This document shows, one piece after another, positions 3,621 to 63,830 of a stretch of DNA of 63,913 bases. This DNA comes from an uncultured Anaerolineae bacterium (GTDB taxonomy: Bacteria > Chloroflexota > Anaerolineae > Anaerolineales > Villigracilaceae), in contig CAIWAX010000251.1 in the NCBI GenBank assembly GCA_903910795.1, forward strand, positions 1 to 63,913, written 5' to 3'. Positions within the stretch are counted from its first letter, which is position 1, and each line of letters begins with the position of its first letter. Both the position numbers and the translations under genes were made by a program. The notes under the pieces are model-generated. The model saw only the letters and a list, made by a program, of their open reading frames with translations. It ran no database searches and was not told the DNA's origin.

Positions 3621-3663
3621 AACAAACATTCCAGCACACCATCCCGCCCGAAAGGAATCTCCC

Positions 3664-4002: not shown

Positions 4003-4037
4003 GGGCGCCTGGCATGGAAGGTAGGTCACCTCACTTC

Positions 4038-45484: not shown

Positions 45485-45489
45485 GCTGG

Positions 45490-47574: not shown

Positions 47575-47588
47575 GGGTCTCTCCTGGT

Positions 47589-48002
47589 TCAGGGAAGTTC
47601 TTGTTCGTCAGCGATATAGAATGGGTAAACAATGCTGCGAGTATCGTGGGTGGATTTGATCTGATATCGAATTTCTGCCAGAAGAATGCCGGTCTGTCCA
47701 TCTTCAGATGAAACAGTGACGTTCAACACTTCGATACGGGGTTCCCACATGCGCAGGGCCTCGTAGACGTAATCCTGCAGCATACTGATCGTGCCCGCTG
47801 TGCGGGGTTCAAAGAGCAGTTCATTGGCCCGGCATCCAAAGGTGGGGCGCATGACCCGTTCTCCGGGTGTGGTGCTGATGATAATGCGGATGGATTGATC
47901 AATATCCTCGCTGCCCGTGACAAGCACGATCTGTCCGCGGGCATCGGTGCGAAGAGGAAAACTCAAACCATTCCCCAAAAATGTTTTAGCATTCTGCGGC
48001 AT
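47589..48002 (-). CDS. gp25-like baseplate wedge protein (GPW_gp25 / Afp9-like)
   Basis: 'FLGNGLSFPLRTDARGQIVLVTGSEDIDQSIRIIISTTPGERVMRPTFGCRANELLFEP'. I started it at ATG 48002. The longer ORF-track model (to 48419) overlaps the PAAR gene in another frame. Confidence 0.85.
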   Translation of the reverse strand: MPQNAKTFLGNGLSFPLRTDARGQIVLVTGSEDIDQSIRIIISTTPGERVMRPTFGCRANELLFEPRTAGTISMLQDYVYEALRMWEPRIEVLNVTVSSEDGQTGILLAEIRYQIKSTHDTRSIVYPFYIADEQELP

Positions 48003-48031
48003 ACCTGTTCTCCAATCCCAATCATACTGAG

Positions 48032-48331
48032 TTATCCACCGATCATTACTGTGAAACAGCCGCTCACAATCGAATCGGGTGGGCCAACACAAACGCACAT
48101 CCCGCCCATAACGGCTGCTGGCAGCCCGCCAATCAAGACGGTCGGCATACCGGGCGGCATGATCGGCCCGCCGACATGCGGGATGGGCGGCACCCCCGGA
48201 GTTTGCATGGGGCACACATGCATATCGCTGATGCGAGCCGCCGGTTGTCCGCCGATCAACACGGTCGGGCAACCCATTACAATTTTTCCACCGTGGGCAG
48301 TTGAGTCGCCCAGTCGCGCAGCAGGAGGCAT
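48032..48331 (-). CDS. PAAR-domain spike-tip protein (Afp10-like)
   Basis: 'PPAARLGDSTAHGG...VLIGGQPAARISD...VLIGGLPAA...VMIGG' are PAAR repeats. 99 aa with no toxin extension. Confidence 0.85.
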   Translation of the reverse strand: MPPAARLGDSTAHGGKIVMGCPTVLIGGQPAARISDMHVCPMQTPGVPPIPHVGGPIMPPGMPTVLIGGLPAAVMGGMCVCVGPPDSIVSGCFTVMIGG

Positions 48332-48345
48332 AGGTACATCCCTTT

Positions 48346-50205
48346 CTAGTTGATCTTGACGATTGCGCCCTGGATTTGAACCATTGCGCCGGCCTTGACA
48401 GAAGTCTCGGCCTGGCCATTCACTTCGACAGTGGGCGCCTTCAGTGCGGCTTGCGCCGGATTCAAGGCCAGTTCGGCGGGGCCAGCTTTCAGGCTCAAAC
48501 CGGCGGGGGCTTCGAGCTTGCCTGTCGCCGGGGAACTGATCTCAAAGCCAGCAGTGCCTTTCAAGGTAAGCTTGCCGGTTGCTTCCAGGGTCATATTCCC
48601 CAGGCACTTGAGAGTTATTTCATTTTTTATTGAGTCAATATCGATCTTGTTTCCCATTTTATCCTGGATCAGGATCTTTTCCATACCGGGCGTATCATCC
48701 AGGACGATGACATGCCCGCTGGGTGAGCGGATGATGCGCTGGTTGACCTCGCCAGCCAGCACCGGCACACCGGTTGGCCCCCTGGGCGCCATATCCCGTC
48801 CATTCCAAAGCACGCCAACAATATAAGGATGATTGATGTCACCGTTTTCAAAAACTACCAGGACTTCATCATTGACAACCGGTGAAAAATAGATACCGCC
48901 CTTGCCGCTCCCTAAACTGGCCATGCGCGCCCAGTTGCTACCCATTTCGAGCGGATCAGCCGGCATCCACGGGAATTTCACTTTCAAACGGCCTTGCAGA
49001 AGCGGATCCATGAGGTCTGTCACAACACCGACCACTGCGCCGTAAATCTTGTTAGCTTCCGGATCCTTGCCCATCATGTGCCCGAAGGTGTATGGGTTGC
49101 GGCCAGAGACCTCAAAGGAAACCTTATAATCCCCGTGCCGGTAAACATGGCGAGCCTGGGTGACAAAGTAGGAACCGGCAAACCGTATACCAACATTGGT
49201 GATAAGCGCCAGGCTGCCGGCCTGCAAGGAGGGTACAGCATCGGCTTCACCGCTGGCAGCCACGTATTGGCTCTCATGCTGCAGGAAGCGCGCATTTGCC
49301 ATGATTGTACCGATCCCTGGATTACTGACCATGGGGTCAAGCACATAATCCTTGGCGTTCGAACTAAACCCGGATCTGATTGCAATACTTCCCGTTATAC
49401 CCTTGGAAACCGTTGGCGAGGATGTCGGGTCTAAATTGGCTGCCAATGGAAGGCTCGGGCCTGAAATACCTACCTTCATGTCAGGATTCCAACCGCGGGC
49501 AATAACGGAAGTAACAGCTCCGGCCGTCACAAAACGCGGTTTAAAGCTTCTCAAGTTCGAAGCCCAGGTCAAATTGACCGGAAGAAGTTGGCGCGGCATG
49601 GAAGCCGGTGAAAAAACCAATTTGCTGTCATCCACATAGACCTGGTATCCAAGCATGCGCGCGCGCGACCACAAAAAGTCCCAATCGCTCTGGTTGTACT
49701 GCATGACATAGGTGTATATTACACCCACCAACCCTGTAAGGTTGACCATGGGTATGAGCCCATGCTCTCCCGCGATTTTCGCAACGATTTCCATGTCTGT
49801 TACAGTTGGCAGAGACCCTGTTCCCCAGGCGCGGGTCTTTTTACCCAGGGTCAGACGGTGAGACTTGTCATAGCCCCGGATTAAAAGTTGGATCTGTCCA
49901 TCCTCGCGAAACTGGGGCTCGATCGAAGTGATCTCTCCTTTCATCAAGGTGTGCGAGATGGCGATTGGCATGCCAGGTCTCTTTACCTTGGCAATTACCT
50001 CTACCGAGGCGCCGATCCGAAACAGCAAGATATCATCGGTGTGCTTAAGCAGTGGGGCAGAAAATACTACCGGCGAATCTTTGAGAGTGATTGTGAACAT
50101 GGATGGCATAAAGACATCCGTATCGACGGTGATCTCCAAAATGTCGCCGTAAATAATCCCGGGCAGTGAGATGCCATTAATCTTTATAGAGAATTCATCA
50201 GGCAT
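48346..50205 (-). CDS. VgrG / phage gpD + gp5-like baseplate hub-spike protein (Afp8-like)
   Basis: The N-terminal region is late-control-gene-D-like. Then an OB-fold 'GAVVGVVTDLMDPLLQGRLKVKFPWM...SNWARMASLGSGKGGIYFSPVVNDEVLVVFENGDINHPYIVGVLWNG'. The C-terminus is a beta-helix. Confidence 0.85.
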   Translation of the reverse strand: MPDEFSIKINGISLPGIIYGDILEITVDTDVFMPSMFTITLKDSPVVFSAPLLKHTDDILLFRIGASVEVIAKVKRPGMPIAISHTLMKGEITSIEPQFREDGQIQLLIRGYDKSHRLTLGKKTRAWGTGSLPTVTDMEIVAKIAGEHGLIPMVNLTGLVGVIYTYVMQYNQSDWDFLWSRARMLGYQVYVDDSKLVFSPASMPRQLLPVNLTWASNLRSFKPRFVTAGAVTSVIARGWNPDMKVGISGPSLPLAANLDPTSSPTVSKGITGSIAIRSGFSSNAKDYVLDPMVSNPGIGTIMANARFLQHESQYVAASGEADAVPSLQAGSLALITNVGIRFAGSYFVTQARHVYRHGDYKVSFEVSGRNPYTFGHMMGKDPEANKIYGAVVGVVTDLMDPLLQGRLKVKFPWMPADPLEMGSNWARMASLGSGKGGIYFSPVVNDEVLVVFENGDINHPYIVGVLWNGRDMAPRGPTGVPVLAGEVNQRIIRSPSGHVIVLDDTPGMEKILIQDKMGNKIDIDSIKNEITLKCLGNMTLEATGKLTLKGTAGFEISSPATGKLEAPAGLSLKAGPAELALNPAQAALKAPTVEVNGQAETSVKAGAMVQIQGAIVKIN

Positions 50206-50221
50206 AGCGCCAGCTTTCTAT

Positions 50222-50245
50222 ACTGAACTTATGGGTACTTTCCAT
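50222..50245 (-). repeat. Dispersed 24-nt motif, copy 6 (ATGGAAAGTACCCATAAGTTCAGT)
   Basis: Fills the 43-nt gap between the LysM-protein stop (50249) and the VgrG ATG (50205). Identical to copy 1. Confidence 0.85.
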
Positions 50246-50248
50246 TGC

Positions 50249-50917
50249 TTAAATATCTTGAGGAACTACCAATATTTGCCCATCCACAAGCTGGAAGGGA
50301 TCATCCATGCCATTGGCTTCAGCCAGGACACGCCAGTAGCGCGAATCGCCGTACTCTTCGTAGGCGATCTGATCCAGCCGCTGCCTGGCGTGCGCTATGC
50401 GGGTTTTCCGTGGGTCGGTGCGGCTGGTGGGGTTCTGGGCCGGAATGATGTCATCGCCAAATAATTCGTTTTGAGTGAACTCAACACTGGCCTTGGCGCG
50501 AATGGGTGTGCCATCCGGCGCGAACAAAATAAACTTGATGGTTACACTCGAAACGACGGCATCAAAAAGTTTTATTTTTCCCCAGACGAATGTCACGGTC
50601 GGGGGTGAAGCGTAGGGCAGTAAGAACATCGAGTAACCGGCTCCGCGCAAGGTCAGCGTGAGCAGTTGGTTGGTAAAGACGCGCACATCCTTGGGGCCGT
50701 TTGCCGCACTATACGAGTCAAAAAAAAGTTCCAGGCTATACGTGGCTGATTCGCCGCCGGCAAATTGCAAATAGGGCGAGTTAAAGCTCGGTGATGGTTC
50801 GCCAGCCCACTTTGTCTCTTTTTTGATTGTCAACTCCGAAGGATTAAATTGACATTCCAATTCACCCCAAACGGGAGGAATGATAGATAACCACTTGAGT
50901 TTGGCTTTTTCCAACAT
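50249..50917 (-). CDS. LysM-domain CIS tube-initiator/baseplate protein (Afp7-like)
   Basis: Tube-like N-terminal region ('ECQFNPSELTIKKETKW'). C-terminal LysM 'QRLDQIAYEEYGDSRYWRVLAEANGMDDPFQLVDGQILVVP'. Confidence 0.8.
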   Translation of the reverse strand: MLEKAKLKWLSIIPPVWGELECQFNPSELTIKKETKWAGEPSPSFNSPYLQFAGGESATYSLELFFDSYSAANGPKDVRVFTNQLLTLTLRGAGYSMFLLPYASPPTVTFVWGKIKLFDAVVSSVTIKFILFAPDGTPIRAKASVEFTQNELFGDDIIPAQNPTSRTDPRKTRIAHARQRLDQIAYEEYGDSRYWRVLAEANGMDDPFQLVDGQILVVPQDI

Positions 50918-50935
50918 TTATCACCTCTTTATCGA

Positions 50936-53749
50936 TTATCGAAACAGGCGTCCAGATCGTTCGGCCTCAATTTGCAGCATACGTTTTACGATTGGCAGTA
51001 TTTTTTCCGCCATATCCGCCAAATTTATTTGGCTTGATAGTTCACTACCGCCGCTAGACTGGTTATCATCCGCCCCGCTGCCATCATTATCATCATCCAT
51101 CACGCGCTGGATTAAATTTGACGAGCTGTTTTTTTGTGCGGGCGGCATCGGGGTTGACTGTTGAGGCGCGTTCATTGATGGCTGGTCAGGCTTGCTCCCA
51201 ACCGGCTCCGGTTTTCTTGAAGGTTCCCTGGCGGGTTCCGGCGGTTTGGGCGGGCGCGCCAATTCCATGGGCGCAGGCTTCACCGCGGATGTATAAGTCG
51301 TTTGCGGGCGCAGGCCTGCAGGAGCAACGGGGAACATTCTGGAAAGGTCCATGCGGGGAGCTGATATTGGTTTGGGCCCATCCACCCTGGAGGGGGATGC
51401 CATCGCAGCCGGGAGCGCGGCAGCCAATTTGGACGCAGGTGGCCGGTTTGAACCAATTTCAGGGGTCTGGGGCTGCGCCAGCGGAGGCCTTGAGGTGGCT
51501 GGTAAATTTTCTCCCAAAGCTGGTGAGGAAGTTTCTGCCTCTGCCGACTTCGGCCCGGGCGGTAAATACTTGCTGGGCTTGACCAGCGGTTCTCGCGGGC
51601 GGCTCACGCTCGGATCCACATGCGGGGTCACTACGCGGTTGGCGGGCTGGATCGATCTCAACTGGAGAGGAGCCTGCTGGCGATATTCGATATGTTTTTG
51701 GAGCGGCCCTTCCTCCGGGCGCGTCGGCGCGCTATCGGTAGAAAGAGATACATTCTCAGGTTGGGCTTCCGGTTTTGAAGCCGGTCTGCCTGATCCAACC
51801 CGCGCGGCTGATTCTGGTGCAGATCCTTTGTCCGTTGAAACCCCTGCCTGCGGTGCAGTTGGCGCGGGTTTCGAATCGATCTGGCGCTGTACCACAGATG
51901 AGCCGCCAGAGTGGGCCGCCGAAGCGTTCCTGGTTGGCCGGGCAACCGGCAGGCGTGGGGCTTTGGGTGCTGAAAGTTTTTTGCGCGGGGCCGGTTGGGC
52001 GGTGGGCGCAGCCGGGTGACGAGCCTGTGTGCCTTGATTTGGCCCGGCCTCAGGCAACTCGGATTTGACCGGCACCGCCAAAGGCAACCTGTCTTCAGGT
52101 GCAGTCAGGGTCGGTCGGGCAACCGGCAGGCGCGGGGTTTTGGGCGCTGAAAGTTTTTTGCGCGGGGCTGGTTGGGCAGCGGGCGCAGCCGGGTGGCGAG
52201 CCTGTATACCTTGATTCGCCCCGGCATCCGGCAGCTCGGATTTGACCGGCACTGCCAAAGGCAGCCTGTTTTCAGGTGGTTCCAGGGTTGGTCGGGCAGG
52301 TTGCTCAGGTTTTTCGAGCTGCCGGGGCCCGGTCTCGCTTGGTAGAGACGGCCTTGCCAGGGGCATATCCTGCGGCTGGGAAAAGCGGACGGAGGGGTTC
52401 TTTTCTGAGTCTTCGGCTTTTTCTTCAGTTCTTGCTTCAAGCCTGGGGCTTGAAGCAGCAGTTTTATCGACTGGTAAAGCGGGGTGCTCGAAGCCTTCAG
52501 GCTTCGCCTGGGATACCGTTTCAGGCGCGGACGCAGGCCTGGGTTGCGAAGGTGCCTGTTTCTCCAGGGGAAGACTTTCGGGTATTGATTTGGCTGCACC
52601 AACCGCTTCAACTTTCGGCTCAGGTCTGGCGGGAAGGGCAGCCGACAACTTTTCAGCCAGGTCAGCCTTTTTTTCGGGGTTGACTGGCCCGGCAGCCGGA
52701 GAGATGGCGGGTGATTCAGAAACCTGAGCGAGTCTGGCTGGCACAGGAGCGGCGTCCGCGGGTTTGACAGGCGCCTGTGATGCGTGTTCCTGTGTACGCG
52801 CATTCTGGGCCAGCGGCATGTCAAGCGGGCCAGGCTTGTGTTCAAGCGAGTCGCTCGATGATTCCAGCGTCTCGGATGGGCGGGACGTGTCATCAGCCAT
52901 CTGCAGTTTGGGGGATGCCTTGTGATCACCCTCAGACCTGTTTTCGGGCTTTACTGACGAGGAGGGTGCCGCAGGTTTTGGCCCGTTTGCAGGTCGTATT
53001 GACTCAGGCGTGCTTCCCGGCTCTACCGGCCGGATCGCTTCTTGCGCCGCTTGCCTCGCGGCAGAAGCTTTTGCTGGCGGGCCGGGCTGCCTGGTGTCTG
53101 GCTGTCGCTGGACAGTCGAGTTGGCAGTCGGGGAAGCTGCCGGGGGGGTAGAATCTGCTCCGGAGTCGGCTTTCTTGTCGTTATCTGATGAGCCGGGTGT
53201 AATTTCCTGTACCTGAGTGAATAAACGATCCCTGGGGGAGAGCCGCGGGATAATGGGGGCTGCCTTACGGGCTGGCTGAATGCTTTGAACCTGATCCTTG
53301 AATGATCCCAGCGATTGGCCTGGTTTCGGGAAAGTGCTCATTTTTGGAATGACGCTGCCCGCGCGCATCATTCCCGGATCGTTGGATGCTTGCGGCTTTT
53401 CAGATGCTCCGCCGCGAGGAATGGTCATATCAACTTTCGACCAGCCACTGCTCGCGCCTGCGCTTTTGGTTGGCAGGTGCAGCAACTGGTCCACATGCGC
53501 AAACCTGGACTTGATTTCCGCACCCATCCTGGCCTTATCCGCTGGCAGGACATGACCCATCCGCTCGGGGTTTAAGATTTGCATCTTTTTCGCCGCGAGC
53601 TGAAATTTTCTGCCAGCAAAATCAGCAGCAACCGGCGAAAAGTTCGCAGGCGACTGCGCCTGGTCAGATTTCTTGCCCGGCGAGAGCATGCGCGCGATGC
53701 GGCTGCTGTTTTGTTGCAGATGGTCAATTAACGGATCAGGGGTGCTCAT
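50936..53749 (-). CDS. Pro/Ala/Ser-rich tape-measure-like protein (Afp14 position) with internal 57-aa duplication
   Basis: 937 aa, in the position between the tube-like and LysM genes. The start overlaps the upstream stop (ATGA). C-terminal 'LADMAEKILPIVKRMLQIEAERSGRLFR'. The assignment rests mainly on position. Confidence 0.5.
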   Translation of the reverse strand: MSTPDPLIDHLQQNSSRIARMLSPGKKSDQAQSPANFSPVAADFAGRKFQLAAKKMQILNPERMGHVLPADKARMGAEIKSRFAHVDQLLHLPTKSAGASSGWSKVDMTIPRGGASEKPQASNDPGMMRAGSVIPKMSTFPKPGQSLGSFKDQVQSIQPARKAAPIIPRLSPRDRLFTQVQEITPGSSDNDKKADSGADSTPPAASPTANSTVQRQPDTRQPGPPAKASAARQAAQEAIRPVEPGSTPESIRPANGPKPAAPSSSVKPENRSEGDHKASPKLQMADDTSRPSETLESSSDSLEHKPGPLDMPLAQNARTQEHASQAPVKPADAAPVPARLAQVSESPAISPAAGPVNPEKKADLAEKLSAALPARPEPKVEAVGAAKSIPESLPLEKQAPSQPRPASAPETVSQAKPEGFEHPALPVDKTAASSPRLEARTEEKAEDSEKNPSVRFSQPQDMPLARPSLPSETGPRQLEKPEQPARPTLEPPENRLPLAVPVKSELPDAGANQGIQARHPAAPAAQPAPRKKLSAPKTPRLPVARPTLTAPEDRLPLAVPVKSELPEAGPNQGTQARHPAAPTAQPAPRKKLSAPKAPRLPVARPTRNASAAHSGGSSVVQRQIDSKPAPTAPQAGVSTDKGSAPESAARVGSGRPASKPEAQPENVSLSTDSAPTRPEEGPLQKHIEYRQQAPLQLRSIQPANRVVTPHVDPSVSRPREPLVKPSKYLPPGPKSAEAETSSPALGENLPATSRPPLAQPQTPEIGSNRPPASKLAAALPAAMASPSRVDGPKPISAPRMDLSRMFPVAPAGLRPQTTYTSAVKPAPMELARPPKPPEPAREPSRKPEPVGSKPDQPSMNAPQQSTPMPPAQKNSSSNLIQRVMDDDNDGSGADDNQSSGGSELSSQINLADMAEKILPIVKRMLQIEAERSGRLFR

Positions 53750-54273
53750 TGGCCTAATTGAAAGTAATCGAAGGATAATTCAAGTGATTCAACCACAATT
53801 TTTGAGGAGTCATCGAGGCTCAGATCGGAAATCTTCCAGCCGACCGGGAAGGCGTTCGTGAATTCCCAACGCTTCAGTACCGGGAAGATAGTCGGGTCCT
53901 TTGAAAGCTCCGGGTTGGGCCGTCTCTGGACGAGGGTAAAATTTTTGGACACTCCAAAACCCAGGGAGGTACCGCCCATCATCCATTTCCAAAAAAAGTC
54001 GGAAGAAGTCAGGCCAACCTCTAAAGTGATGTGGCTGAAAGAAACTTGCCCGGCAAATTCAAGTCCGTAATCATTCTGGCCGCCAACATCAAGTGGTTCT
54101 ATCTTCCGCTTGACTTCCATCCCGCTGACGCTCTGGAAGAGCGCCACTGTTTTCCCAGACATTTCGATCGAAAATTGATAGATTGGAACAGGAAATTCGC
54201 CAATATCGTCGAGGGGTAACGGCGTTGGATCTGTTGCAGTGGTAACGCTGGATGTAGATTGGAGTAAGCCCAT
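53746..54273 (-). CDS. Phage T4 gp19-like tail-tube family protein (third tube paralog, Afp5-like)
   Basis: 'YQFSIEMSGKTVALFQSVSGMEV...GQVSFSHITLEVGLT...WEFTNAFPVGWKISDLSLDDSSKIVVESLELSFDYF' has the pattern of the CIS tube family. Confidence 0.7.
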   Translation of the reverse strand: MGLLQSTSSVTTATDPTPLPLDDIGEFPVPIYQFSIEMSGKTVALFQSVSGMEVKRKIEPLDVGGQNDYGLEFAGQVSFSHITLEVGLTSSDFFWKWMMGGTSLGFGVSKNFTLVQRRPNPELSKDPTIFPVLKRWEFTNAFPVGWKISDLSLDDSSKIVVESLELSFDYFQLGQ

Positions 54274-54284
54274 GATTTGTCTCG

Positions 54285-54422
54285 CTATACGTACCCGGTG
54301 CGCTCGCGCTCAAGTTCGAGTTCGCGCAGCAGCAGTTCAAAAACTTCACGAGCCAGCTCTTCCAGGTCTGGTTCAGCCTGGTCTGGCGTATCTTGCGGCT
54401 GGGGGGTGTTTTGTGATGGCAT
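54285..54422 (-). CDS. Unannotated 45-aa ORF sharing the tape-measure C-terminal motif
   Basis: ATG at 54422 to TAG at 54285: MPSQNTPQPQDTPDQAEPDLEELAREVFELLLRELELERERTGYV. It is below the ORF-track size cutoff. It starts 4 nt after the -1-frame stop upstream and ends 11 nt before the next start. Confidence 0.45.
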   Translation of the reverse strand: MPSQNTPQPQDTPDQAEPDLEELAREVFELLLRELELERERTGYV

Positions 54423-54426
54423 GTGT

Positions 54427-54594
54427 TCAAGCTCCCTGGTTCAACCGTTTATTGATCTCGGCGATTTCTTTCACCCATCGCCTTCTGTACAGGTGATCCA
54501 TGTCCAAGATCGCCTCCGGCGGCCAGTGAAAATAATAGGCGATATAGGCTACCTCCTGGTGGAGCAGTTCCAGAGGGTAGCCGGTTACCCCCCC
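54427..54594 (-). other. -1 frame extension downstream of a G7 slippery run (candidate programmed frameshift or homopolymer indel)
   Basis: mRNA reads CUG GGG GGG UAA (G-run 54594-54588). In the -1 frame it reads on as VTGYPLELLHQEVAYIAYYFHWPPEAILDMDHLYRRRWVKEIAEINKRLNQGA, stopping at 54427-54429. That frame has a TGA just upstream and no ATG/GTG/TTG before the 'ELLHQEVAY' segment. Confidence 0.5.
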
Positions 54595-54950
54595 AGCGTG
54601 GAGAGGTCCAATTCAAAGGGTTGCTGGCAGTGCGGGCAAATAAATTCGCGCCGGGTGCTGCCAGTTTCATTGATCTGGCGGTAAAACTCCTGCAGGTAAG
54701 TCAGGTCAGACGCGAACAGATTTTCGATCACGTTGGGGTTAATCGAAGCCAGGGTCCCCAAGCTGGTGATGACGCGCGCCAGCAGGACGATGACAATATA
54801 GGCATTATTGCTCTGCACGCGCATGTCGTTCAGGATGGTTATCTCATCCATGGCAGTTGCCAGGCGCATGCTGCCCTGCTTGTGCAAATTACCTTCCCTA
54901 TCCACAAAACCCATGGGCAGTTCAAACTCAAATTCTGTTTTTAGATTCAT
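54585..54950 (-). CDS. Tail-assembly-chaperone-like protein (Afp6 position), 0-frame product
   Basis: 121 aa from ATG 54950 (SD 'GGAGAG' 7 nt upstream): MNLKTEFEFELPMGFVDREGNLHKQGSMRLATAMDEI...CPHCQQPFELDLSTLGG. It sits between the tube genes and the tape-measure-like gene, as phage G/GT chaperones do. Confidence 0.6.
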   Translation of the reverse strand: MNLKTEFEFELPMGFVDREGNLHKQGSMRLATAMDEITILNDMRVQSNNAYIVIVLLARVITSLGTLASINPNVIENLFASDLTYLQEFYRQINETGSTRREFICPHCQQPFELDLSTLGG

Positions 54951-55000
54951 CACTTCTCTCCGTTCGACCTGCACAAACAGGCAAGCCTGATCACAACCTG

Positions 55001-55480
55001 CTAAGGCACGAATTCGATGGATTCAGCCTGGAAATATATTTCAAAATCGGTGTAGTTAACGCCCGTCCCATCTGGGCCAGCGATCCTTCCATTAAAGCTG
55101 AAACCATCCAGCTTGGTAGGCAATGCGTTAATCAGATTCCACCAGGCCACAGGGTTACCCTGACTATCGTTCATAGAGATTGAATAATTTTTGCGCTCGC
55201 ACTTTCCAAGGATCGCATCGGCCAGTAGCTTGTACATGCCCGCGCTGCTGGCGTCCACCGGCCGCAGAAGAGCCACCGGTTCGAAAGTAGTCTGGCCTGG
55301 CATAACGCGGGTGGTCACCATACCAAGTGCATCAATGACATTGTACGTGACCATCGAGATGCTTTGGTCGCCGCCCGTCAAAGCGTCAAACGAGGCCAGA
55401 AAGGGATTCCCGTTAGTAACTGTAAAATCATATAATGAAAATTGTGCGGACGGAGTTGGTTCATAGTTTAACGTTGACAT
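55001..55480 (-). CDS. Tail-tube family protein (second tube paralog)
   Basis: 159 aa, 'AQFSLYDFTVTNGN...FEPVALLRPVD...WWNLINALPTKLDGFSFNG...VNYTDFEIYFQAESIEFVP', a gp19-like pattern. Confidence 0.7.
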   Translation of the reverse strand: MSTLNYEPTPSAQFSLYDFTVTNGNPFLASFDALTGGDQSISMVTYNVIDALGMVTTRVMPGQTTFEPVALLRPVDASSAGMYKLLADAILGKCERKNYSISMNDSQGNPVAWWNLINALPTKLDGFSFNGRIAGPDGTGVNYTDFEIYFQAESIEFVP

Positions 55481-55500
55481 AAGAAACCATTCCTGTGATT

Positions 55501-55622
55501 ACGTACCCTGCGGGTCAGTCTTAACCGAAACAGGTCGCTGCAACGTACCCTGTGGGCTGAGCGGGCGAAGAACCTCCTGGCAAACTTTTCAGTCTGCCAG
55601 GAAATCCTACGTACCCTGTGGG
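55501..55622 (-). repeat. Three copies of the intergenic repeat ACGTACCCTG(T/C)GGG (plus-strand reading)
   Basis: Copies at 55501-55514, 55543-55556 and 55609-55622, in the 168-nt gap between the two tube genes. A 7-bp hairpin CCTGGCA...TGCCAGG lies between copies 2 and 3. Confidence 0.8.
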
Positions 55623-55648
55623 CTCGCCGCGCTCAAGGCGAATAAAAA

Positions 55649-56095
55649 TCAGCTTACTCTGACAACACCTTCGTGAACAATGGTCATATCTTCGACCATG
55701 TAGTCCACCGCGCCGGAATCCATATCCGGGCCAACCACTTTGCTCGGCCAGGCGTTTACAAAATTCCAGCGGGCAATTTCTTTTTGACTCTGATCGTAAG
55801 CCACGATCGAACAGTTGGTGCGGGCGGCGTCCACTTTGCCTTCCACAACCTTCTGGCGCCATTGCCAAATATCGATATTGCTGGTGACACCACGTTTGAG
55901 TGTGACCGGGGTCCAGCTCAGGCGGCCGGGGATTTGTTGAATGAGAGTTTCACCGGTTTTGTCATTTACGATTTTGTGCGCGATGACCTCGGTTTCGGAA
56001 CCGATGCCGCCCACATTGGTAAAAAAGCCGCTCAGTTTGCCTTCGAGTTCCAGGCCAAACTTAAATGCAACAAGGGGATTTTCTGGATCAGCCAT
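55649..56095 (-). CDS. Major tail-tube protein (T4 gp19-like, Afp1-like)
   Basis: 'LVAFKFGLELEGKLSGFFTNVGGIGSETEV...GRLSWTPVTLKRGVT...WNFVNAWPSKVVGPDMD' is the classic CIS tube signature. SD 'AAGGAG' upstream. Confidence 0.85.
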   Translation of the reverse strand: MADPENPLVAFKFGLELEGKLSGFFTNVGGIGSETEVIAHKIVNDKTGETLIQQIPGRLSWTPVTLKRGVTSNIDIWQWRQKVVEGKVDAARTNCSIVAYDQSQKEIARWNFVNAWPSKVVGPDMDSGAVDYMVEDMTIVHEGVVRVS

Positions 56096-56110
56096 TTTGT
56101 ACGCTCCTTA

Positions 56111-56160
56111 TAGTAATCCCGGCTTTAGTACGGGATAGTAATCCCGGCTTTAGCACGGGA
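56111..56160 (-). repeat. 2 x 25-nt tandem hairpin unit upstream of the tube gene
   Basis: tagtaatcccggctttagtacggga / tagtaatcccggctttagcacggga (24/25 identical). Each unit contains ATCCCG-N9-CGGGAT. About 80% identical to the tandem units at 63769-63818. Confidence 0.85.
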
Positions 56161-56177
56161 ATCAAGTATTCTTTAAT

Positions 56178-56201
56178 ACTGAACTTATCGGTACTTCCTA
56201 T
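56178..56201 (-). repeat. Dispersed 24-nt motif, copy 7 (degenerate: ATAGGAAGTACCGATAAGTTCAGT)
   Basis: 21/24 match to the consensus. Overlaps the sheath stop codon (56198-56200). Confidence 0.6.
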
Positions 56202-57859
56202 TCCGTTCCGGGCCCAGCCCACTGGCTGATGCGGAAGATGACAAATTCGGCAGGTTTGACCGGCGCCATGCCAATTTCAATATACAGGCGGCCCATATCA
56301 CGTGTTTCCGACGGGTTCAGTTCATCATCGATCTTGACATAGAAGGCATCCGAAGGAGCCGCGCCAAACAGGGCGCCATCCCGCCAGACAGTGCGCAGGA
56401 AGGAGGATACATCACGGTTGACACGCGCCCACAGCTTGCGATCATTCGGTTCGAACACGACCCACTGGGTACCGTTCTCGATCGATTTTTCAACAAAGTT
56501 GAACAGGCGGCGCACGTTAATGTAGCGCCAGGATGGGTTGCTGGAGAGGGTGCGCGCGCCCCAAACGCGGATGCCGCGGCCGGGGAAGGAACGCACACAG
56601 TTAATGCCGATCGGGTTGAGCGTATCCTGCTCGCCCTTGGTAGTCTGGTAGGACAGGCCTACTACGCCCTGCACCACTTCATTGGCAGGGGCCTTGTGAA
56701 CGCCGCGCGTATTATCGCTGCGCGCCCACACGCCTGCAATGTGACCGGAGCTCGGAATTTTGATAACCGTGTCAGTGGCTGGATCCATGACTTTGACCCA
56801 GGGGTAATACATGGCTGCATAGCTGCTATCGAAGCCGGTAACGTTCATGCGCCAGTTTTTGACTTCCTGGGGGGTCAGATCGGGCGGAGCATCCAGGATG
56901 GCCACGCGGTCACCCATGCGTTCGCAGTGCGCGATCATCATGGTTTGGACACCCTTGACCATATCCAGGTTGAGCTTCTCGCCAGGCATGGTGGTCATCA
57001 AATCGGGCACCACTACCATGGTAACATCATCCAACACTTCCAGACCTTCGACGCCCTTGCGTTCGCTGACATCACCGCGGAAATCGCTGGCAACGGGCGC
57101 TTCCAGCAGCTTCTTGTCAATCGAGAGGGTCTGCTCCTGTTCACGGGGAGTGGCTTTCTCGATGGAAGCAGCCTCGAGCACAATCAGCTCAATGAATTTG
57201 GGCAGCTTGTTGTTTTTGTAGGCCAGCACAACCTGTTTCTTGCCATCCACCAACGCGGTTTGAACCTTGACATCCGGGACGGTTTCGAGGGGTTTCCAGC
57301 CGCCATTGGTGGCTTCTTTTTCGACATACAGGGTGAATAACGGCTCACTGCTTACTTCAGTTGGTGCTTCAGCTTCCGGGGCGGCGCCTTCAGCGGGCGC
57401 AGCAGCACCCTTCTTCCCGGTCGCAGCCGGTGCTGGCAGAGCCAGGTTGCCCACGCGGGCGCGCAGCTTCATGCCATCCACGCCAGCCTGACGCGAACGT
57501 ACAGTCAAAGCGGGTTTGCCTGCCGCGTTGATCAAGGTGGCTTCGGCCTTCGGGAAAGTGCGCACGCTGACGACATAGCAGCGCGAACCGCCATTGGTGA
57601 AATAGCCATAAACAGCCTGGGGCAGGTTGATGCCAGGCACGAAGCCGCCAAAACGTTCAACGAACTGGGTCCAATTGGTCACCAGTTGGGGGCGGTTGAG
57701 CAGATCTTCCACCACCAGTTCGTTGTCAATTTCGCGGGTGTATTCGGCTTTTTCAGAAAAACCGACAAAAGCAGCCATGGCGGTACCAACGCCTTCAATT
57801 GGTTTTGGCCCACGGTCCACTTCTTCAACATAGACTCCGGGCGACAGATACTCTGGCAT
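56198..57859 (-). CDS. Contractile tail sheath protein (Afp2-4-like)
   Basis: 'MPEYLSPGVYVEEVDRGPKPIEGVGTAMAAFVGF' plus C-terminal 'YAAMYYPWVKV...GVHKAPAN...INCVRSFPGRGIRVWGARTL' are hallmark sheath motifs. SD 'AAGGAGG' upstream. Confidence 0.95.
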   Translation of the reverse strand: MPEYLSPGVYVEEVDRGPKPIEGVGTAMAAFVGFSEKAEYTREIDNELVVEDLLNRPQLVTNWTQFVERFGGFVPGINLPQAVYGYFTNGGSRCYVVSVRTFPKAEATLINAAGKPALTVRSRQAGVDGMKLRARVGNLALPAPAATGKKGAAAPAEGAAPEAEAPTEVSSEPLFTLYVEKEATNGGWKPLETVPDVKVQTALVDGKKQVVLAYKNNKLPKFIELIVLEAASIEKATPREQEQTLSIDKKLLEAPVASDFRGDVSERKGVEGLEVLDDVTMVVVPDLMTTMPGEKLNLDMVKGVQTMMIAHCERMGDRVAILDAPPDLTPQEVKNWRMNVTGFDSSYAAMYYPWVKVMDPATDTVIKIPSSGHIAGVWARSDNTRGVHKAPANEVVQGVVGLSYQTTKGEQDTLNPIGINCVRSFPGRGIRVWGARTLSSNPSWRYINVRRLFNFVEKSIENGTQWVVFEPNDRKLWARVNRDVSSFLRTVWRDGALFGAAPSDAFYVKIDDELNPSETRDMGRLYIEIGMAPVKPAEFVIFRISQWAGPGTE

Positions 57860-57927
57860 GTATTCCTCCTTACAAAAATATGAGAGACGACGGAAAGCTG
57901 TTCGATTAATAGATGGGTTGTACGGTT

Positions 57928-57973
57928 ATGTACCCTGTGGGTCAGATAAACTCCTTTCTACGTACCCTGTGGG
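57928..57973 (-). repeat. Two copies of the A(C/T)GTACCCTGTGGG repeat upstream of the sheath gene
   Basis: 57928-57941 (atgtaccctgtggg) and 57960-57973 (acgtaccctgtggg), in the 151-nt gap between the DUF4255 gene and the sheath gene. Confidence 0.8.
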
Positions 57974-58010
57974 TGGATTTTAGGTCAGGAATTCACAGTA
58001 TGCAAGCTTC

Positions 58011-58934
58011 TTATACCTGAATATCGTATCCATCAGGGGCTGGCACAAGAATTTTTTGACGTTTGAGAACCTTCTTGTTAAAAAGAATATCGATATGATA
58101 TTCTCCTTCCACAATTCCATGCAGTGCATAATTTCCCTGTGCGTCGATCTGGAGCGGCGCCTGTTTTTCCACCAAAATGGCGGAGAGGGTCGAGAGGTCA
58201 TATTTATCACTGCGAATCTTCCCGGTCGCGGCAAAATAAGATTTTGAGCTGGCTAGGGTAACCTCCACCTGGCTTTCCTGCCCGTCCGGGCCCTCTAGGT
58301 ATCCTGTGGGTGTGCTGGCAGCGGGCGGTCGGCCGTACGTAGCCTGTGGTTTGGATGTGTCCTGGAAGACGCTCAATTCGCGGGTACTGACCTTCTTGAC
58401 GGTGATCGGTTTGTAGGGGTCCATCGTGACGGTCACAATCACCATCACAGCCGGGCGCATTTCGTTATCCAGCACGCCCCACAGCTCTGAAAATTTATCC
58501 ATCGGGCCCTGTTCATTGGGGAAATTGGCTACTTCAATTGGTATTTGCGTGGGCTGGCTGCGCAAACTCTCTGGCAGGAGATCCTCTGGCACAAATGGAT
58601 TGCGAAACAGACCCATCAGCGCGTTGGAGAGCAGGATATGCTCATCTTCAGCCTCCTTGACCCAGGCGGTCAGCAAGTAGCGCAACGAGATGTGCACCGG
58701 GTTACGGTGGATATCGGCGCTGCCATCGTCGCGCGCGACGGTGCGATATTGTTCCGAACCGCGCAGACGCAGGTTCTCACGAATATCGAAGAGATACAGG
58801 TTTATGGTGGGCTTGCTCAAGCGTGATGACCATTCGCGTTTGGGCATGTCGAACTGAACATCGATCTCGTTGCCCTTAATATCGATCTCACGGATCAACA
58901 GCTTGCGCAGAACTTCATCCACATCCGCAATCAT
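58011..58934 (-). CDS. DUF4255 (Pvc16_N) tail terminator/cap protein (Afp16-like) with C-terminal CarboxypepD_reg-like beta-sandwich
   Basis: 'IADVDEVLRKLLIREI...VQFDMPKREWSSRLSKPTINLYLFDIRENLRLR' is the DUF4255 signature. C-terminal 'GNYALHGIVEGEYHIDILF'. Confidence 0.85.
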   Translation of the reverse strand: MIADVDEVLRKLLIREIDIKGNEIDVQFDMPKREWSSRLSKPTINLYLFDIRENLRLRGSEQYRTVARDDGSADIHRNPVHISLRYLLTAWVKEAEDEHILLSNALMGLFRNPFVPEDLLPESLRSQPTQIPIEVANFPNEQGPMDKFSELWGVLDNEMRPAVMVIVTVTMDPYKPITVKKVSTRELSVFQDTSKPQATYGRPPAASTPTGYLEGPDGQESQVEVTLASSKSYFAATGKIRSDKYDLSTLSAILVEKQAPLQIDAQGNYALHGIVEGEYHIDILFNKKVLKRQKILVPAPDGYDIQV

Positions 58935-59208
58935 GGTTTACCAGCTTCCTTGTCTGGTGTGCTCATGGTTCATCCCATTCACTGTCGTCTTTAGCATTTT
59001 CGGTTTCAGGATCGTCTTGCATGGCTTCGCGTCTTCCGAGCTTTGGGTCCAGACTTGGGATTAGTCTGCTGTGGATTTTTTCCACATGTTTCAGCGGCAG
59101 ACCTTTCTTTACTATTCACTCAGGCTCAAACCACTTCCAAACTGGTTCGGTGCCTTGAGTGCCGGCGGCAGGTTAGAGGGGTAACTCGTCAGGCAGCTCG
59201 TCAAAATC

Positions 59209-61617: not shown

Positions 61618-61639
61618 ATAAGCTCTCCATTGTCAACTA

Positions 61640-63769: not shown

Positions 63770-63830
63770 GGTAATCCAGGTTTCTGCACGGGATGGTAAT
63801 CCAGGTTTATGCACGGGATGGTAATCAAAC
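63769..63830 (-). repeat. 2.5 x 25-nt tandem unit abutting the ATPase start codon
   Basis: tggtaatccaggtttctgcacggga / tggtaatccaggtttatgcacggga / tggtaatcaaac. Same family as 56111-56160. Confidence 0.85.

What the first reader, a model, noticed from the sequence alone, without database searches (positions are those of the whole stretch)
54427..54950. G7 slippery run joins the chaperone-like ORF to a start-less -1 frame ORF (G/GT-style frameshift or homopolymer error)
The 121-aa ORF ends ...CUG GGG GGG UAA. A slip back by one nucleotide on the seven-G run reads GUA ACC GGC... instead. That continues for 53 codons (VTGYPLELLHQEVAYIAYYFHWPPEAILDMDHLYRRRWVKEIAEINKRLNQGA) to a TGA only 4 nt before the next ATG.

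The -1 frame opens right after a TGA. It has no ATG, GTG or TTG upstream of the ordered-looking 'ELLHQEVAYIAYYFHW' segment, so it cannot be initiated independently in full. Without the extension there would be about 160 nt of untranslated sequence in an otherwise gap-free operon.

The gene sits between the tube genes and the tape-measure-like gene. That is where tailed phages encode the G/GT tail-assembly chaperone pair, which is made by -1 programmed frameshifting. I am not aware that such recoding is an established feature of CIS loci.
Basis: seen in the sequence. Interest (0 to 1): 0.72.

Follow-up and report, generated by a model that had tools for sequence, protein, structure and literature searches.

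The report
Frameshifted assembly chaperone of injection system
A bacterial phage-tail-like injection-system gene cluster encodes its tail-assembly chaperone the way phages P2 and lambda do: a conserved slippery G run followed by an RNA hairpin most likely makes some ribosomes slip back one base and add a 53-residue domain that has no start codon of its own, a recoding event not annotated or described for these systems.

Summary
On the minus strand a 121-aa ORF (54950-54588) ends CUG GGG GGG UAA. The -1 frame then stays open for 53 codons to a TGA (54429-54427), with no ATG, GTG or TTG before its conserved part.

The -1 peptide is real coding sequence. It matches Pfam DUF6760 (E 1e-13) and is homologous to the E' extension of phage P2 gpE+E', which is made only by -1 frameshifting. 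The upstream ORF is a tail assembly chaperone by PHROG hit and by fold.

In 86 of 87 related loci (Chloroflexota, Myxococcota, Chthonomonas, KSB1, an archaeon, viral contigs) the two parts keep the -1 relationship. An in-register slip motif lies within 12 nt of the upstream stop: G_GGG_GGG, G_GGG_GAA, G_GGG_GGA, G_GGA_AAC or A_AAT_TTT. The slip-site Gly codons are fixed as GGG, whereas other invariant Gly codons vary freely. A covarying hairpin follows 5-8 nt downstream. Most loci have no usable start codon.

A homopolymer sequencing error is excluded. The best explanation is programmed -1 ribosomal frameshifting, a P2 E/E+E' (lambda G/GT) style chaperone pair in a lineage-II-type contractile injection system. 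This is a new member of a known kind. Searched CIS literature does not report it, and databases annotate the extension as a stand-alone DUF6760 gene.

The parts
54588..54950 (-). Upstream ORF (121 aa), the tail assembly chaperone ('E/G-like') part; the zero-frame product ends ...STLGG
   Evidence: sequence and translation. PHROG phrog_508 'tail assembly chaperone', E = 5.4e-9. AF2 model pLDDT 82.7. Foldseek matches to T4-like baseplate hub assembly proteins (1e-7) and Mu FS-gp41 (prob 1.0, E 0.013). 1378 homologs; the closest 120 are all 121-123 aa.
54588..54594 (-). Slippery heptamer G_GGG_GGG, in zero-frame register (CU[G GGG GGG] UAA)
   Evidence: In-register junction motifs in 75 loci: G_GGG_GGG 39, G_GGG_GAA 29, G_GGG_GGA 4, G_GGA_AAC 2, G_GGG_GAG 1. 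A_AAT_TTT in L089/L090 and C_CCG_GGG in L087. Slip-site Gly codons are GGG in 48/48 and 39/43 cases, against 10-19% GGG at other invariant Gly columns.
54585..54587 (-). Zero-frame stop codon UAA, immediately 3' of the slippery heptamer
   Evidence: In relatives the zero-frame stop lies 0-2 codons after the slip motif.
54547..54582 (-). Hairpin GGCUACC-C-UCUGG / 10-nt loop / CCAGG-A-GGUAGCC, starting 5 nt after the heptamer; putative frameshift stimulator
   Evidence: Fold of the hairpin alone: -19.4 kcal/mol, z = -3.75, 0 of 200 shuffles as stable. RNAalifold consensus on 49 loci: 11 pairs, 5 with compensatory changes. 93.9% of cells paired against 86.8% in shuffles (0/500); covariation 0.239 against 0.137 (0/500); slid registers 34-60%. 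Present in archaeal L077 and, with unrelated sequence, in L089.
54430..54588 (-). -1 frame extension, 53 codons (VTGYPLELLHQEVAYIAYYFHWPPEAILDMDHLYRRRWVKEIAEINKRLNQGA); DUF6760 / P2 E'-like domain with no start codon of its own
   Evidence: Pfam DUF6760 E = 1.3e-13 (above the gathering score) and Phage_P2_GpE E = 0.0026. PF06528 maps to the P2 E' extension. hhalign of the C-part profile against P2 E': 90.9%, E = 1.2e-6. Conserved in 86 loci.
54427..54429 (-). UGA stop of the -1 frame, 4 nt before the next gene's ATG (54422)
54430..54950 (-). Predicted frameshift fusion product (174 aa), ...FELDLSTLGG|VTGYPLE...
   Evidence: Inference from the parts above. Natural in-frame N+C fusions exist in other lineages (P0190 150 aa; P0214 311 aa).
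55001..56095 (-). Two gp19-type tube genes immediately upstream (55649-56095 and 55001-55480)
   Evidence: Pfam Phage_T4_gp19, E = 1.2e-31 and 2e-15.
50936..53749 (-). 937-aa Pro/Ala/Ser-rich protein in the tape-measure position, two genes downstream; candidate client of the chaperone (inferred)
   Evidence: No Pfam, PHROG or NCBIfam hit. Sequence. The equivalent position in L089 holds an 1112-aa protein directly after the chaperone pair.

Best explanation
The locus encodes a phage-type tail assembly chaperone pair by programmed -1 ribosomal frameshifting.

Most ribosomes translate the 121-aa chaperone and terminate at UAA. A fraction slip back one nucleotide while Gly-tRNAs occupy G_GGG_GGG, either as a tandem slip or as a P-site slip with the stop codon in the A site. 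The slip is probably helped by the -19 kcal/mol hairpin that begins 5 nt downstream at the mRNA entry channel. Those ribosomes continue in the -1 frame for 53 codons and produce a 174-aa protein whose C-terminal DUF6760 domain is the counterpart of P2 E' (or lambda T).

By analogy with lambda G/GT and P2 E/E+E' (established knowledge: Levin 1993, Christie 2002, Xu 2004), the short form would coat the tape-measure-like protein. The long form would use the extra domain to recruit tube subunits or the initiator complex, in a ratio fixed by the recoding efficiency.

Shown here: the sequence anatomy; conservation of frame, slip motif and hairpin; the coding nature of the extension and its homology to E'; and the chaperone nature of the upstream ORF.

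Inferred: that slippage happens on the ribosome, its efficiency, that the hairpin stimulates it, and the roles of the two products.
For: 1. Anatomy in the window.
2. The -1 peptide is DUF6760 (E 1.3e-13). It is homologous to P2 E', which P2 makes only by a -1 frameshift (annotated in AF063097; PF06528 covers E'; hhalign 90.9%, E 1.2e-6, shared FHWPP motif).
3. The upstream ORF is a tail assembly chaperone: phrog_508, E 5.4e-9; fold matches to T4-like baseplate hub assembly proteins, Mu FS-gp41 and a tape-measure chaperone; its relative in L089 hits Phage_TAC_7 (E 2.4e-4) and T4_baseplate (1e-11).
4. 75 of 75 analysed genome loci, plus 11 of 11 viral-collection loci that have both parts, keep the -1 relationship. 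They span Chloroflexota, Myxococcota, Chthonomonas, Paracoccaceae, KSB1 and Ca. Methanoperedens.
5. The slip motif is always in register within 12 nt of the stop, but its sequence differs between lineages: G_GGG_GGG, G_GGG_GAA, G_GGG_GGA, G_GGA_AAC, A_AAT_TTT, C_CCG_GGG. In L081, L084 and L086 the overlap is only 10-13 nt, which confines the shift to the motif.
6. Nucleotide-level constraint on GGG GGG.
7. 32 of 75 loci have no ATG, GTG or TTG at all in the -1 frame before the conserved motif, and another 32 have one only 16 or more codons upstream.
8. A hairpin with covariation.
9. Natural in-frame N+C fusions exist.
10. There is no promoter or terminator at the junction.
Against: - There is no expression data. 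The frameshift product, its abundance and the role of the hairpin are all unobserved.
- G_GGG_GAA, the most widespread motif outside Anaerolineae, is not a perfect X_XXY_YYZ heptamer: the A-site Glu-tRNA would re-pair with GGA through a central G.U.
- I cannot cite an efficiency for G_GGG_GGG in any bacterium.
- 11 of 75 loci have an ATG or TTG just before the conserved domain, so independent initiation is possible there.
- The hairpin arms encode conserved residues (GYP and EVAY), so part of the pairing could be a by-product of protein conservation. The shuffle control does not remove phylogenetic relatedness (caveat stated). The Chthonomonas hairpin is weak.
- The upstream ORF does not reach Pfam Phage_TAC_7 significance in the window (E 0.2), and the hhalign comparison with P2 gpE is not significant.
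- One viral-collection locus, L088, has the chaperone but no detectable extension.
Confidence: 0.8

Rival explanations
1. Transcriptional slippage. RNA polymerase stutters on the G7 (or G8) template run and adds one G to a fraction of transcripts. Standard translation of those transcripts then yields the same fusion protein.
For: The window and 39 relatives have homopolymeric runs of 7-8 G. Inserting one G gives exactly the -1 reading. Transcriptional realignment is a known way to express out-of-frame genes in bacteria (established knowledge, Baranov et al. 2005).
Against: 36 of 75 relatives have only G5-G6 or non-homopolymeric heptamers (G_GGG_GAA, G_GGA_AAC), and L089 has A_AAT_TTT. These are too short for efficient polymerase slippage but fit the tandem-tRNA slippage rule and its register. 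The motif is always in the zero-frame register, which is irrelevant to a polymerase. The conserved hairpin 5-8 nt downstream is the classic ribosomal stimulator geometry. Known bacterial cases use runs of 9 or more A or T (from my own knowledge).
Confidence: 0.07
2. Two independent genes. The DUF6760 peptide is initiated separately, by translational coupling, by re-initiation after the UAA, or from a non-canonical start. The G run would serve as a Shine-Dalgarno-like element.
For: Gene callers and NCBI list about 2000 stand-alone 'DUF6760 family proteins' of 52-95 aa. 11 of 75 loci have an ATG or TTG one or two codons before GYP (ATGA overlap). A G-rich run can pair with the anti-SD sequence.
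Against: The window has no ATG, GTG or TTG in the -1 frame before the conserved segment. 32 of 75 loci have none at all and 32 have one only far upstream. Where traced, NCBI calls start at ATA or ATT (the P0271/L066 ATA by my comparison; L077 ATA and L078 ATT). The Met or Ile at that position simply tracks whether the upstream stop is TGA or TAA/TAG, so the ATG is not conserved. The homologous P2 E' has no independent expression. Natural in-frame fusions exist. Register-specific conservation of the slip motif and the GGG codons has no explanation under this model.
Confidence: 0.06
3. Sequencing or assembly error in the homopolymer. The true sequence has 8 G and the locus is a plain 174-aa fused gene.
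For: Homopolymer runs are error-prone. One related locus, L026, does show a 1-nt difference (G7 against G8 in its relative L031) that breaks the arrangement.
Against: 86 of 87 loci from independent assemblies keep a stop 0-2 codons after the motif and the extension in the -1 frame, with G5, G6, G7 or G8 runs each compensated by the neighbouring bases. The 120 closest protein clusters, from ENA, JGI, NCBI and Logan, are all 121-123 aa. Seven member sequences on 18 contigs share the window's exact 121-aa protein (P0001).
Confidence: 0.01
4. The downstream frame is a decaying remnant of a formerly fused or separate gene and is no longer expressed.
For: There is no start codon, and one relative, L088, lacks the extension.
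Against: The frame stays open for 50-63 codons in 86 loci, with 11 invariant residues. The third codon position is far more variable than the first and second (1.26 against 0.73 and 0.47 bits). The Pfam hit is above the gathering score.
Confidence: 0.01

Closest known systems
Phage P2 gpE / gpE+E' (programmed -1 frameshift in the FETUD tail operon; Pfam Phage_TAC_7 + Phage_P2_GpE)
   Same: It belongs to a contractile-tail machine. The chaperone gene lies after the sheath and tube genes. The extension is in the -1 frame and has no start. A slippery heptamer sits a few codons before the zero-frame stop. The extension is homologous (FHWPP...L..M....W; hhalign 90.9%, E 1.2e-6; PF06528 hit E 0.0026). 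A relative of the upstream ORF (L089) hits Phage_TAC_7.
   Different: - Slip site is G_GGG_GGG rather than T_TTT_TTG.
- The stop is directly adjacent rather than 6 codons later.
- There is a conserved downstream hairpin; I did not examine P2 for one.
- The upstream ORF is larger (121 against 91 aa), carries a CPxC motif, and is not detectably similar to gpE by pairwise profile.
- The host system is a CIS with an AAA+ ATPase and Pvc16, not a phage.
- E' overlaps the tape measure gene T in P2, whereas here a 45-aa ORF and a gp19-like gene intervene.
Phage lambda gpG / gpGT and the conserved tail-chaperone frameshift of long-tailed phages (Levin 1993; Xu, Hendrix and Duda 2004; cited from my own knowledge)
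   Same: The logic is the same: two products from overlapping ORFs placed after the tube genes and ahead of the tape-measure-position gene, a -1 shift at an X_XXY_YYZ heptamer, and an extension made only as a fusion. The Chthonomonas relatives use G_GGA_AAC, close to lambda's G_GGA_AAG.
   Different: No sequence similarity to G or T was detected. Lambda has a non-contractile tail. The ratio and roles of the two products were not measured here.
Phage Mu gp41 / FS-gp41 and T4-like 'baseplate hub assembly' proteins (Pfam T4_baseplate)
   Same: These are the best fold matches to the upstream ORF (BFVD E 1e-7 to 1e-2, prob about 1.0). L089's tandem N-N protein hits T4_baseplate at 1e-11. From its name, Mu FS-gp41 is itself a frameshift product.
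   Different: The T4-like proteins are about 260 aa with two domains and, to my knowledge, are not known to be recoded. Sequence identity is only 14-24%.
Afp6 / Pvc6 / Cis6 / Alg6 'spike plug' of characterised eCIS
   Same: It is a small helical protein of about 55 aa encoded after the tube genes, and it is essential for particle assembly (PMC12546770, PMC8894136).
   Different: No sequence match to any PDB chain, including these, for either the single sequence or the profile. Cis6 has its own start codon and no upstream chaperone partner. If anything here is Cis6-like, it is the neighbouring 45-aa ORF (weak DUF5908 hit, E 0.09). So DUF6760 is not shown to be the plug.

Membership tests
Tail assembly chaperone pair made by programmed -1 frameshift (lambda G/GT, P2 E/E+E' type) | Two overlapping ORFs, with the downstream one in the -1 frame and lacking its own initiation codon | tested here: met
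   for the window. 86 of 87 related loci are in the -1 frame. 64 of 75 have no nearby ATG, GTG or TTG.
Tail assembly chaperone pair made by programmed -1 frameshift (lambda G/GT, P2 E/E+E' type) | Slippery heptamer X_XXY_YYZ in the zero-frame register inside the overlap, conserved in position among relatives | tested here: met
   G_GGG_GGG at 54594-54588. Junction motifs are in register in all 75 loci, with A_AAT_TTT in L089. 30 loci carry the imperfect G_GGG_GAA or G_GGG_GAG.
Tail assembly chaperone pair made by programmed -1 frameshift (lambda G/GT, P2 E/E+E' type) | Position between the tail tube gene and the tape measure gene | tested here: inconclusive
   The pair is directly after two gp19-type tube genes. 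The 937-aa protein in the tape-measure position is two genes downstream and has no recognisable TMP domain. In L089 an 1112-aa protein follows directly.
Tail assembly chaperone pair made by programmed -1 frameshift (lambda G/GT, P2 E/E+E' type) | The upstream ORF belongs to a tail assembly chaperone family | tested here: met
   phrog_508 'tail assembly chaperone', E 5.4e-9. Foldseek matches to Mu FS-gp41 and a tape measure chaperone. PDB top compact hits are YqbN and the HK97 TAC, but neither is significant. Pfam Phage_TAC_7 scores only E 0.2 in the window and 2.4e-4 in relative L089.
Tail assembly chaperone pair made by programmed -1 frameshift (lambda G/GT, P2 E/E+E' type) | Both the short and the frameshifted long product are synthesised, in a fixed ratio, and both are needed for tail assembly | not testable with these tools
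   This needs proteomics, reporter assays and genetics.
Pfam PF06528 Phage_P2_GpE (the P2 E' extension) | Score at or above the gathering threshold (23 bits) | tested here: not met
   17.6 bits, E 0.0026, covering only profile positions 2-18 of 37. Remote homology is nevertheless supported by hhalign at 90.9%, E 1.2e-6. It is therefore a relative of the family, not a member.
Pfam PF20546 DUF6760 | Score at or above the gathering threshold (27 bits) | tested here: met
   51.3 bits, E 1.3e-13. Homologs carry precomputed PF20546.
Extracellular/cytoplasmic contractile injection system (Afp/PVC-related, lineage II-like organisation) | Sheath, tube, VgrG spike, gp25, baseplate J, plus the CIS-specific AAA+ ATPase (Cis15) and Pvc16/Afp16 cap; no capsid or terminase genes | tested here: met
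   Pfam hits: AAA+WHD, eCIS_core, Pvc16_N, Phage_sheath_1, Phage_T4_gp19, CIS_tube, Phage_base_V/GPD, GPW_gp25, Baseplate_J and Tail_P2_I, across 44513-63814. The flanking genes are a cyclase-STAND-TPR protein and a subtilase, not phage head genes.
Cis6/Afp6 spike plug | Sequence similarity to solved Cis6, Pvc6 or Alg6 chains | tested here: not met
   No PDB chain of these families was matched by the DUF6760 sequence or profile at E up to 10.

The most novel reading that the evidence does not exclude
A frameshift-dependent E'/DUF6760 chaperone module, with an in-register G_GGN slip site and a covarying hairpin, may be an ancestral and near-universal component of lineage-II-type contractile injection systems in Bacteria and Archaea, including Ca. 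Methanoperedens.

If so, it would supply the 'missing' phage-like chaperone and tape-measure assembly route that surveys report as absent or unrecognised in these systems. It would be the first recoding event described for CIS, would include a rare case of -1 programmed frameshifting in an archaeon, and would mean that thousands of 'DUF6760 family protein' gene calls are mis-annotated fragments of a fusion protein.
Probability: 0.6. Interest if true: 0.65.

Novelty: new member of a known kind. Interest (0 to 1): 0.5.

Why it matters
1. Annotation. The DUF6760 family (about 2000 clusters) is called as stand-alone genes, sometimes from ATA or ATT 'starts'. It should instead be annotated as the ribosomal-slippage extension of the upstream tail assembly chaperone and linked to P2 E'.

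2. CIS biology. Surveys state that lineage II eCIS and Streptomyces CIS lack a recognisable tape measure (Afp14) and carry conserved genes of unknown function (PMC6899500, PMC10066040). Recognising a phage-type chaperone pair next to a long disordered protein in the tape-measure position gives a concrete, testable model for how these particles set tube length and start assembly.

3. Engineering. Heterologous expression or re-coding of such clusters would lose the long product if codon optimisation removed the G run or the hairpin.

4. Recoding. The family offers a natural series of slip sites (G_GGG_GGG, G_GGG_GAA, G_GGA_AAC, A_AAT_TTT) with one conserved stimulator, spread across phyla and in an archaeon. 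That is useful for studying the rules of -1 frameshifting outside E. coli.

Tried and rejected
- Sequence searches against the PDB found nothing meaningful. This covered the DUF6760 peptide, its profile, the N-part, the 45-aa ORF and its profile. I therefore cannot equate DUF6760 or the small ORF with the solved Cis6/Pvc6 plug.
- NCBIfam gave no hit for any of the four proteins tried.
- tblastn of the fusion against 50,697 GenBank phage records gave no match. Close relatives are not in cultured phages.
- hhalign of the N-part profile against P2 gpE was not significant. The link to Phage_TAC_7 rests on the PHROG hit, the fold matches and the L089 relative.
- Foldseek against the PDB gave only non-significant hits.
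- Rfam has no matching frameshift element.
- The search for related loci with the diverse alignment A5 failed for lack of a conserved stretch. I used A3 instead.
- The energy z-score for the 81-nt junction segment as a whole was unimpressive (-1.15). Only the hairpin on its own is significant.
- I considered the hairpin as a terminator or attenuator. It has no U-tract, and the scan found no terminator there.
- I considered that the conserved GTG 67-69 nt upstream in the -1 frame of the Myxococcota loci might be a start. I rejected this because it lies inside the N-part coding sequence and would add about 22 out-of-frame residues.
Full report
**Observation**

The finding lies on the minus strand. 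A 121-aa ORF starts at ATG 54950 and ends ...CUG GGG GGG UAA. The G run is 54594-54588 and the TAA is 54587-54585.

The -1 frame opens after a TGA 25 nt upstream of that stop. From GUA (54588) it reads VTGYPLELLHQEVAYIAYYFHWPPEAILDMDHLYRRRWVKEIAEINKRLNQGA, which is 53 codons, up to a TGA at 54429-54427. The next gene's ATG at 54422 follows 4 nt later. No ATG, GTG or TTG occurs in that frame before the conserved part.

In zero-frame register the run is CU[G GGG GGG], a perfect X_XXY_YYZ heptamer.

**Context**

The surrounding 20 kb is a contractile injection system cluster. In order on the minus strand it contains:
- an AAA+ ATPase with a winged-helix domain
- an eCIS_core (DUF4157) protein
- Pvc16_N
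- sheath
- two gp19-type tube genes
- the ORF pair discussed here
- a 45-aa ORF
- a third gp19-like gene
- a 937-aa Pro/Ala/Ser-rich protein
- CIS_tube
- VgrG
- gp25
- Baseplate_J
- Tail_P2_I

The flanking genes are cellular: a cyclase-STAND-TPR protein and a subtilase. No capsid or terminase genes are present. The closest relatives are Anaerolineae MAGs.

**Is the -1 frame coding?**

Yes.
- It matches Pfam DUF6760 above the gathering score (51.3 bits, E 1.3e-13) and weakly matches Phage_P2_GpE (E 0.0026).
- I fetched phage P2 and found that PF06528 'Phage_P2_GpE' covers exactly the E' extension of gpE+E' (E 2.4e-22). P2 makes that part only by a -1 frameshift at T_TTT_TTG.
- The two extensions share a visible motif...DVAVIFHWPPSELYPMSLTELITW... 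in P2 and ...EVAYIAYYFHWPPEAILDMDHLYRRRW... in the window. A profile of 25 extension sequences aligns to P2 E' with hhalign probability 90.9%, E 1.2e-6.
- Across 73 distinct orthologous DNA sequences, entropy by codon position is 0.73/0.47/1.26 bits, which is a coding signature.

**What is the upstream ORF?**

It has no Pfam or NCBIfam hit in the window. Other evidence identifies it as a chaperone.
- It matches phrog_508 'tail assembly chaperone' at E 5.4e-9.
- An AlphaFold2 model (pLDDT 82.7) matches T4-like 'baseplate hub assembly' proteins in the viral structure library (E down to 1e-7). It also matches Mu 'tail assembly protein FS-gp41' (prob 1.0, E 0.013) and a 'tape measure chaperone'.
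- The only compact PDB matches are YqbN and the HK97 tail assembly chaperone, but they are not significant.
- A distant relative, L089, hits Pfam T4_baseplate (1e-11) and Phage_TAC_7, the gpE/gp41 family (2.4e-4, below the cutoff).
- NCBI names one homolog 'phage tail assembly protein'.

**Comparative test of recoding**

The 120 closest protein clusters are all 121-123 aa, so the stop is reproducible.

I retrieved 75 genome loci, two more through DUF6760 proteins and 13 from the viral-contig collection. The results are as follows.

- *Frame.* In 75 of 75 analysable loci, and in 11 of 11 viral-collection loci with both parts, the DUF6760 part is in the -1 frame. The one exception, L026, has G7 where its close relative L031 has G8, and I suspect it is a long-read MAG, so a homopolymer indel is likely. 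One locus, L088, lacks the extension altogether.
- *Slip motif.* All 75 loci have a slip motif in zero-frame register within 12 nt of the upstream stop: G_GGG_GGG 39, G_GGG_GAA 29, G_GGG_GGA 4, G_GGA_AAC 2 (Chthonomonas) and G_GGG_GAG 1. The low-GC L089 and L090 have A_AAT_TTT two codons before the stop, and L087 has C_CCG_GGG. So the position and register are kept while the sequence changes.
- *Shift window.* In L081, L084 and L086 the -1 frame opens only 10-13 nt before the stop, which pins the shift to the motif.
- *Start codons.* 32 of 75 loci have no ATG, GTG or TTG in the -1 frame before the conserved GYP motif. Another 32 have one only 16 or more codons upstream. 11 have a nearby ATG or TTG, produced by GAA-TGA.
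- *Nucleotide-level constraint.* The two slip-site Gly codons are GGG in 48/48 and 39/43 loci. Five other Gly columns of the same protein, invariant or nearly so, use GGG in only 10-19% of cases, with GGC dominant, and GGG is 20% of Gly codons in the loci overall.
- *Natural fusions.* In-frame N+C fusions without a G run exist elsewhere (P0190, P0214). The fused architecture is therefore biologically used.

**RNA structure**

A hairpin (54582-54547; GGCUACC-C-UCUGG, 10-nt loop, CCAGG-A-GGUAGCC) begins 5 nt after the heptamer.
- On its own it folds at -19.4 kcal/mol with z = -3.75, and 0 of 200 shuffles fold as well. The 81-nt segment as a whole was not remarkable.
- On 49 loci, RNAalifold recovers it with 11 pairs, 5 of them compensatory.
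- With one further outer pair added to the structure, 93.9% of cells pair against 86.8% in shuffles (0/500). The covariation score is 0.239 against 0.137 (0/500), and all slid registers give 34-60%.
- One pair is C-G in 42 sequences and U-A in 7, and is never broken. It links a synonymous Tyr wobble position (UAC or UAU) with a Val or Ile codon (GUA or AUA) 24 nt away.
- Equivalent hairpins occur in the archaeal locus (-19.9 kcal/mol, z -4.4) and in L089, the latter from unrelated sequence (-23.8 kcal/mol, z -4.85). The Chthonomonas hairpin is weak.

Two caveats apply. The stem arms encode conserved residues, and the shuffle control ignores phylogeny.

Rfam has no matching family. There is no promoter or terminator at the junction.

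**Annotation status**

A profile search finds 1988 DUF6760 clusters, called as stand-alone proteins of 52-95 aa and named 'DUF6760 family protein' by NCBI. Many begin M-x-GYPL. Where I traced them, the 'M' is an ATA (L066, Ca. Methanoperedens L077) or ATT (KSB1 L078) codon, or an ATG created by the upstream TGA stop. Both traced loci lie in CIS clusters and have G_GGG_GAA plus the hairpin.

**Mechanism**

The most likely mechanism is programmed -1 ribosomal frameshifting, confidence about 0.8. It would yield a 121-aa chaperone and a 174-aa chaperone-E' fusion, and by analogy with lambda G/GT and P2 E/E+E' both act in tube and tape-measure assembly.

Rivals:
- Transcriptional slippage on the G run (0.07). 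It is disfavoured by the relatives with short or non-homopolymeric motifs and by the register dependence.
- Independent initiation (0.06). It is possible only in the minority of loci with an ATGA overlap.
- Sequencing error (0.01).
- A dead remnant (0.01).

What is not shown: the product itself, its ratio to the short form, the hairpin's effect, and the identity of the client protein.

**Comparison with what is known, and novelty**

The kind of mechanism is well known for phage tails. The extension is a remote homolog of P2 E', although it does not reach PF06528's threshold, so it is a relative rather than a member of that Pfam family.

For CIS I found no report. No searchable paper contains DUF6760. 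None combines CIS terms with programmed frameshifting. The core eCIS papers listed never use 'slippery' or 'ribosomal frameshifting'.

Chen et al. 2019 say that afp14 tape-measure homologs are generally absent from lineage II and that conserved subtype-specific genes there lack known domains (PMC6899500). Casu et al. 2023 say that Streptomyces CIS lack a typical tape measure protein (PMC10066040). The Cis6/Pvc6 'spike plug' is a different small protein (PMC8894136, PMC12546770), and DUF6760 shows no match to it.

I therefore rate this as a new member of a known kind. A specialist would not find it very surprising, but it is unannotated, phylogenetically broad (it includes an archaeon), and useful for CIS assembly models, annotation and engineering. 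Interest 0.5.

Noticed in passing
window 54285-54422 (-) and window 50936-53749 (-): The 45-aa ORF after the extension (MPSQ...DLEELAREVFELLLRELELERERTGYV) is conserved in the Chloroflexota loci (consensus DLxxLAExIxxLLxxELxxExERxG). The same motif ends the 937-aa protein (...NLADMAEKILPIVKRMLQIEAERSGRLFR). This may be a shared docking helix. The small ORF has only a weak DUF5908 hit (E 0.09) and no PDB match, so its identity as a Cis6-like plug is open.
   Followed up: partly
window 50936-53749 (-): The 937-aa protein in the tape-measure position is extremely Pro/Ala/Ser-rich and looks disordered. It has an internal duplication of about 57 aa (PENRLPLAVPVKSELP...PRLPVARPT) and no hit in Pfam, PHROGs or NCBIfam. 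That is unlike the typical helical tape measure proteins.
   Followed up: partly
L066 junction (about 1025-1192); L077 4001-4183; L078 329-493: Public 'DUF6760 family protein' gene calls start at non-canonical ATA or ATT codons placed just after the upstream stop. This looks like an annotation work-around for a frame that has no real start.
   Followed up: yes
L026 3340-3380: This is the only locus with the extension in the +1 frame. It has G7 where its close relative L031 has G8, and it comes from a MAG I suspect is long-read, so a homopolymer deletion error is likely.
   Followed up: yes
L089 5494-6345; proteins P0121, P0122, P0126, P0128: Tandem duplications of the chaperone domain (N-N, about 250-283 aa) are common among relatives. 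They hit Pfam T4_baseplate, and the best fold matches are T4-like 'baseplate hub assembly' proteins. This suggests those T4-type proteins are duplicated tail assembly chaperones.
   Followed up: partly
L077 (Ca. Methanoperedens, VEPM01000008) 3636-4183: An archaeal CIS cluster carries the same chaperone/-1 extension arrangement (CGG GGG GAA TAG) with the hairpin. If it is expressed by slippage, it would be a -1 programmed frameshift in an archaeon.
   Followed up: partly
window 54620-54650 (-); alignment A3 columns C105/C108: The chaperone ORF carries a nearly invariant CPxC motif (CPHC in the window) shortly before the slip site. It gives weak zinc-ribbon-like hits, and only one Cys pair is present. 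Its function is unknown.
   Followed up: no
window 59209-61617 (-); L078 1067-2953: An 802-aa eCIS_core (DUF4157) protein sits between the AAA+ ATPase and the Pvc16 gene in the window. In the KSB1 locus a 628-aa eCIS_core protein instead occupies the tape-measure position after the gp19-like gene.
   Followed up: no
window 38143-41610 (-): A 1155-aa protein with zinc-ribbon, adenylate/guanylate cyclase, AAA_16 (STAND) and TPR domains lies on the same strand about 3 kb beyond the last baseplate gene, after two unassigned ORFs. It may be a regulator or an unrelated neighbour.
   Followed up: no
L046-L075 (Myxococcota loci), about 20-60 nt after the extension's stop: In the Myxococcota loci the gene after the extension is a protein of about 400 aa beginning MSSLYKSPGVHIESAGDRY..., not the small ORF. 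I suspect from its N-terminal sequence that it is a second sheath-like protein, but I did not check it against Pfam.
   Followed up: no
L088 6300-6480: One viral-collection locus has the chaperone ORF but no detectable DUF6760 extension downstream. The sequence there is an AT-rich repeat (GGATAGGAATTTTAA twice).
   Followed up: no
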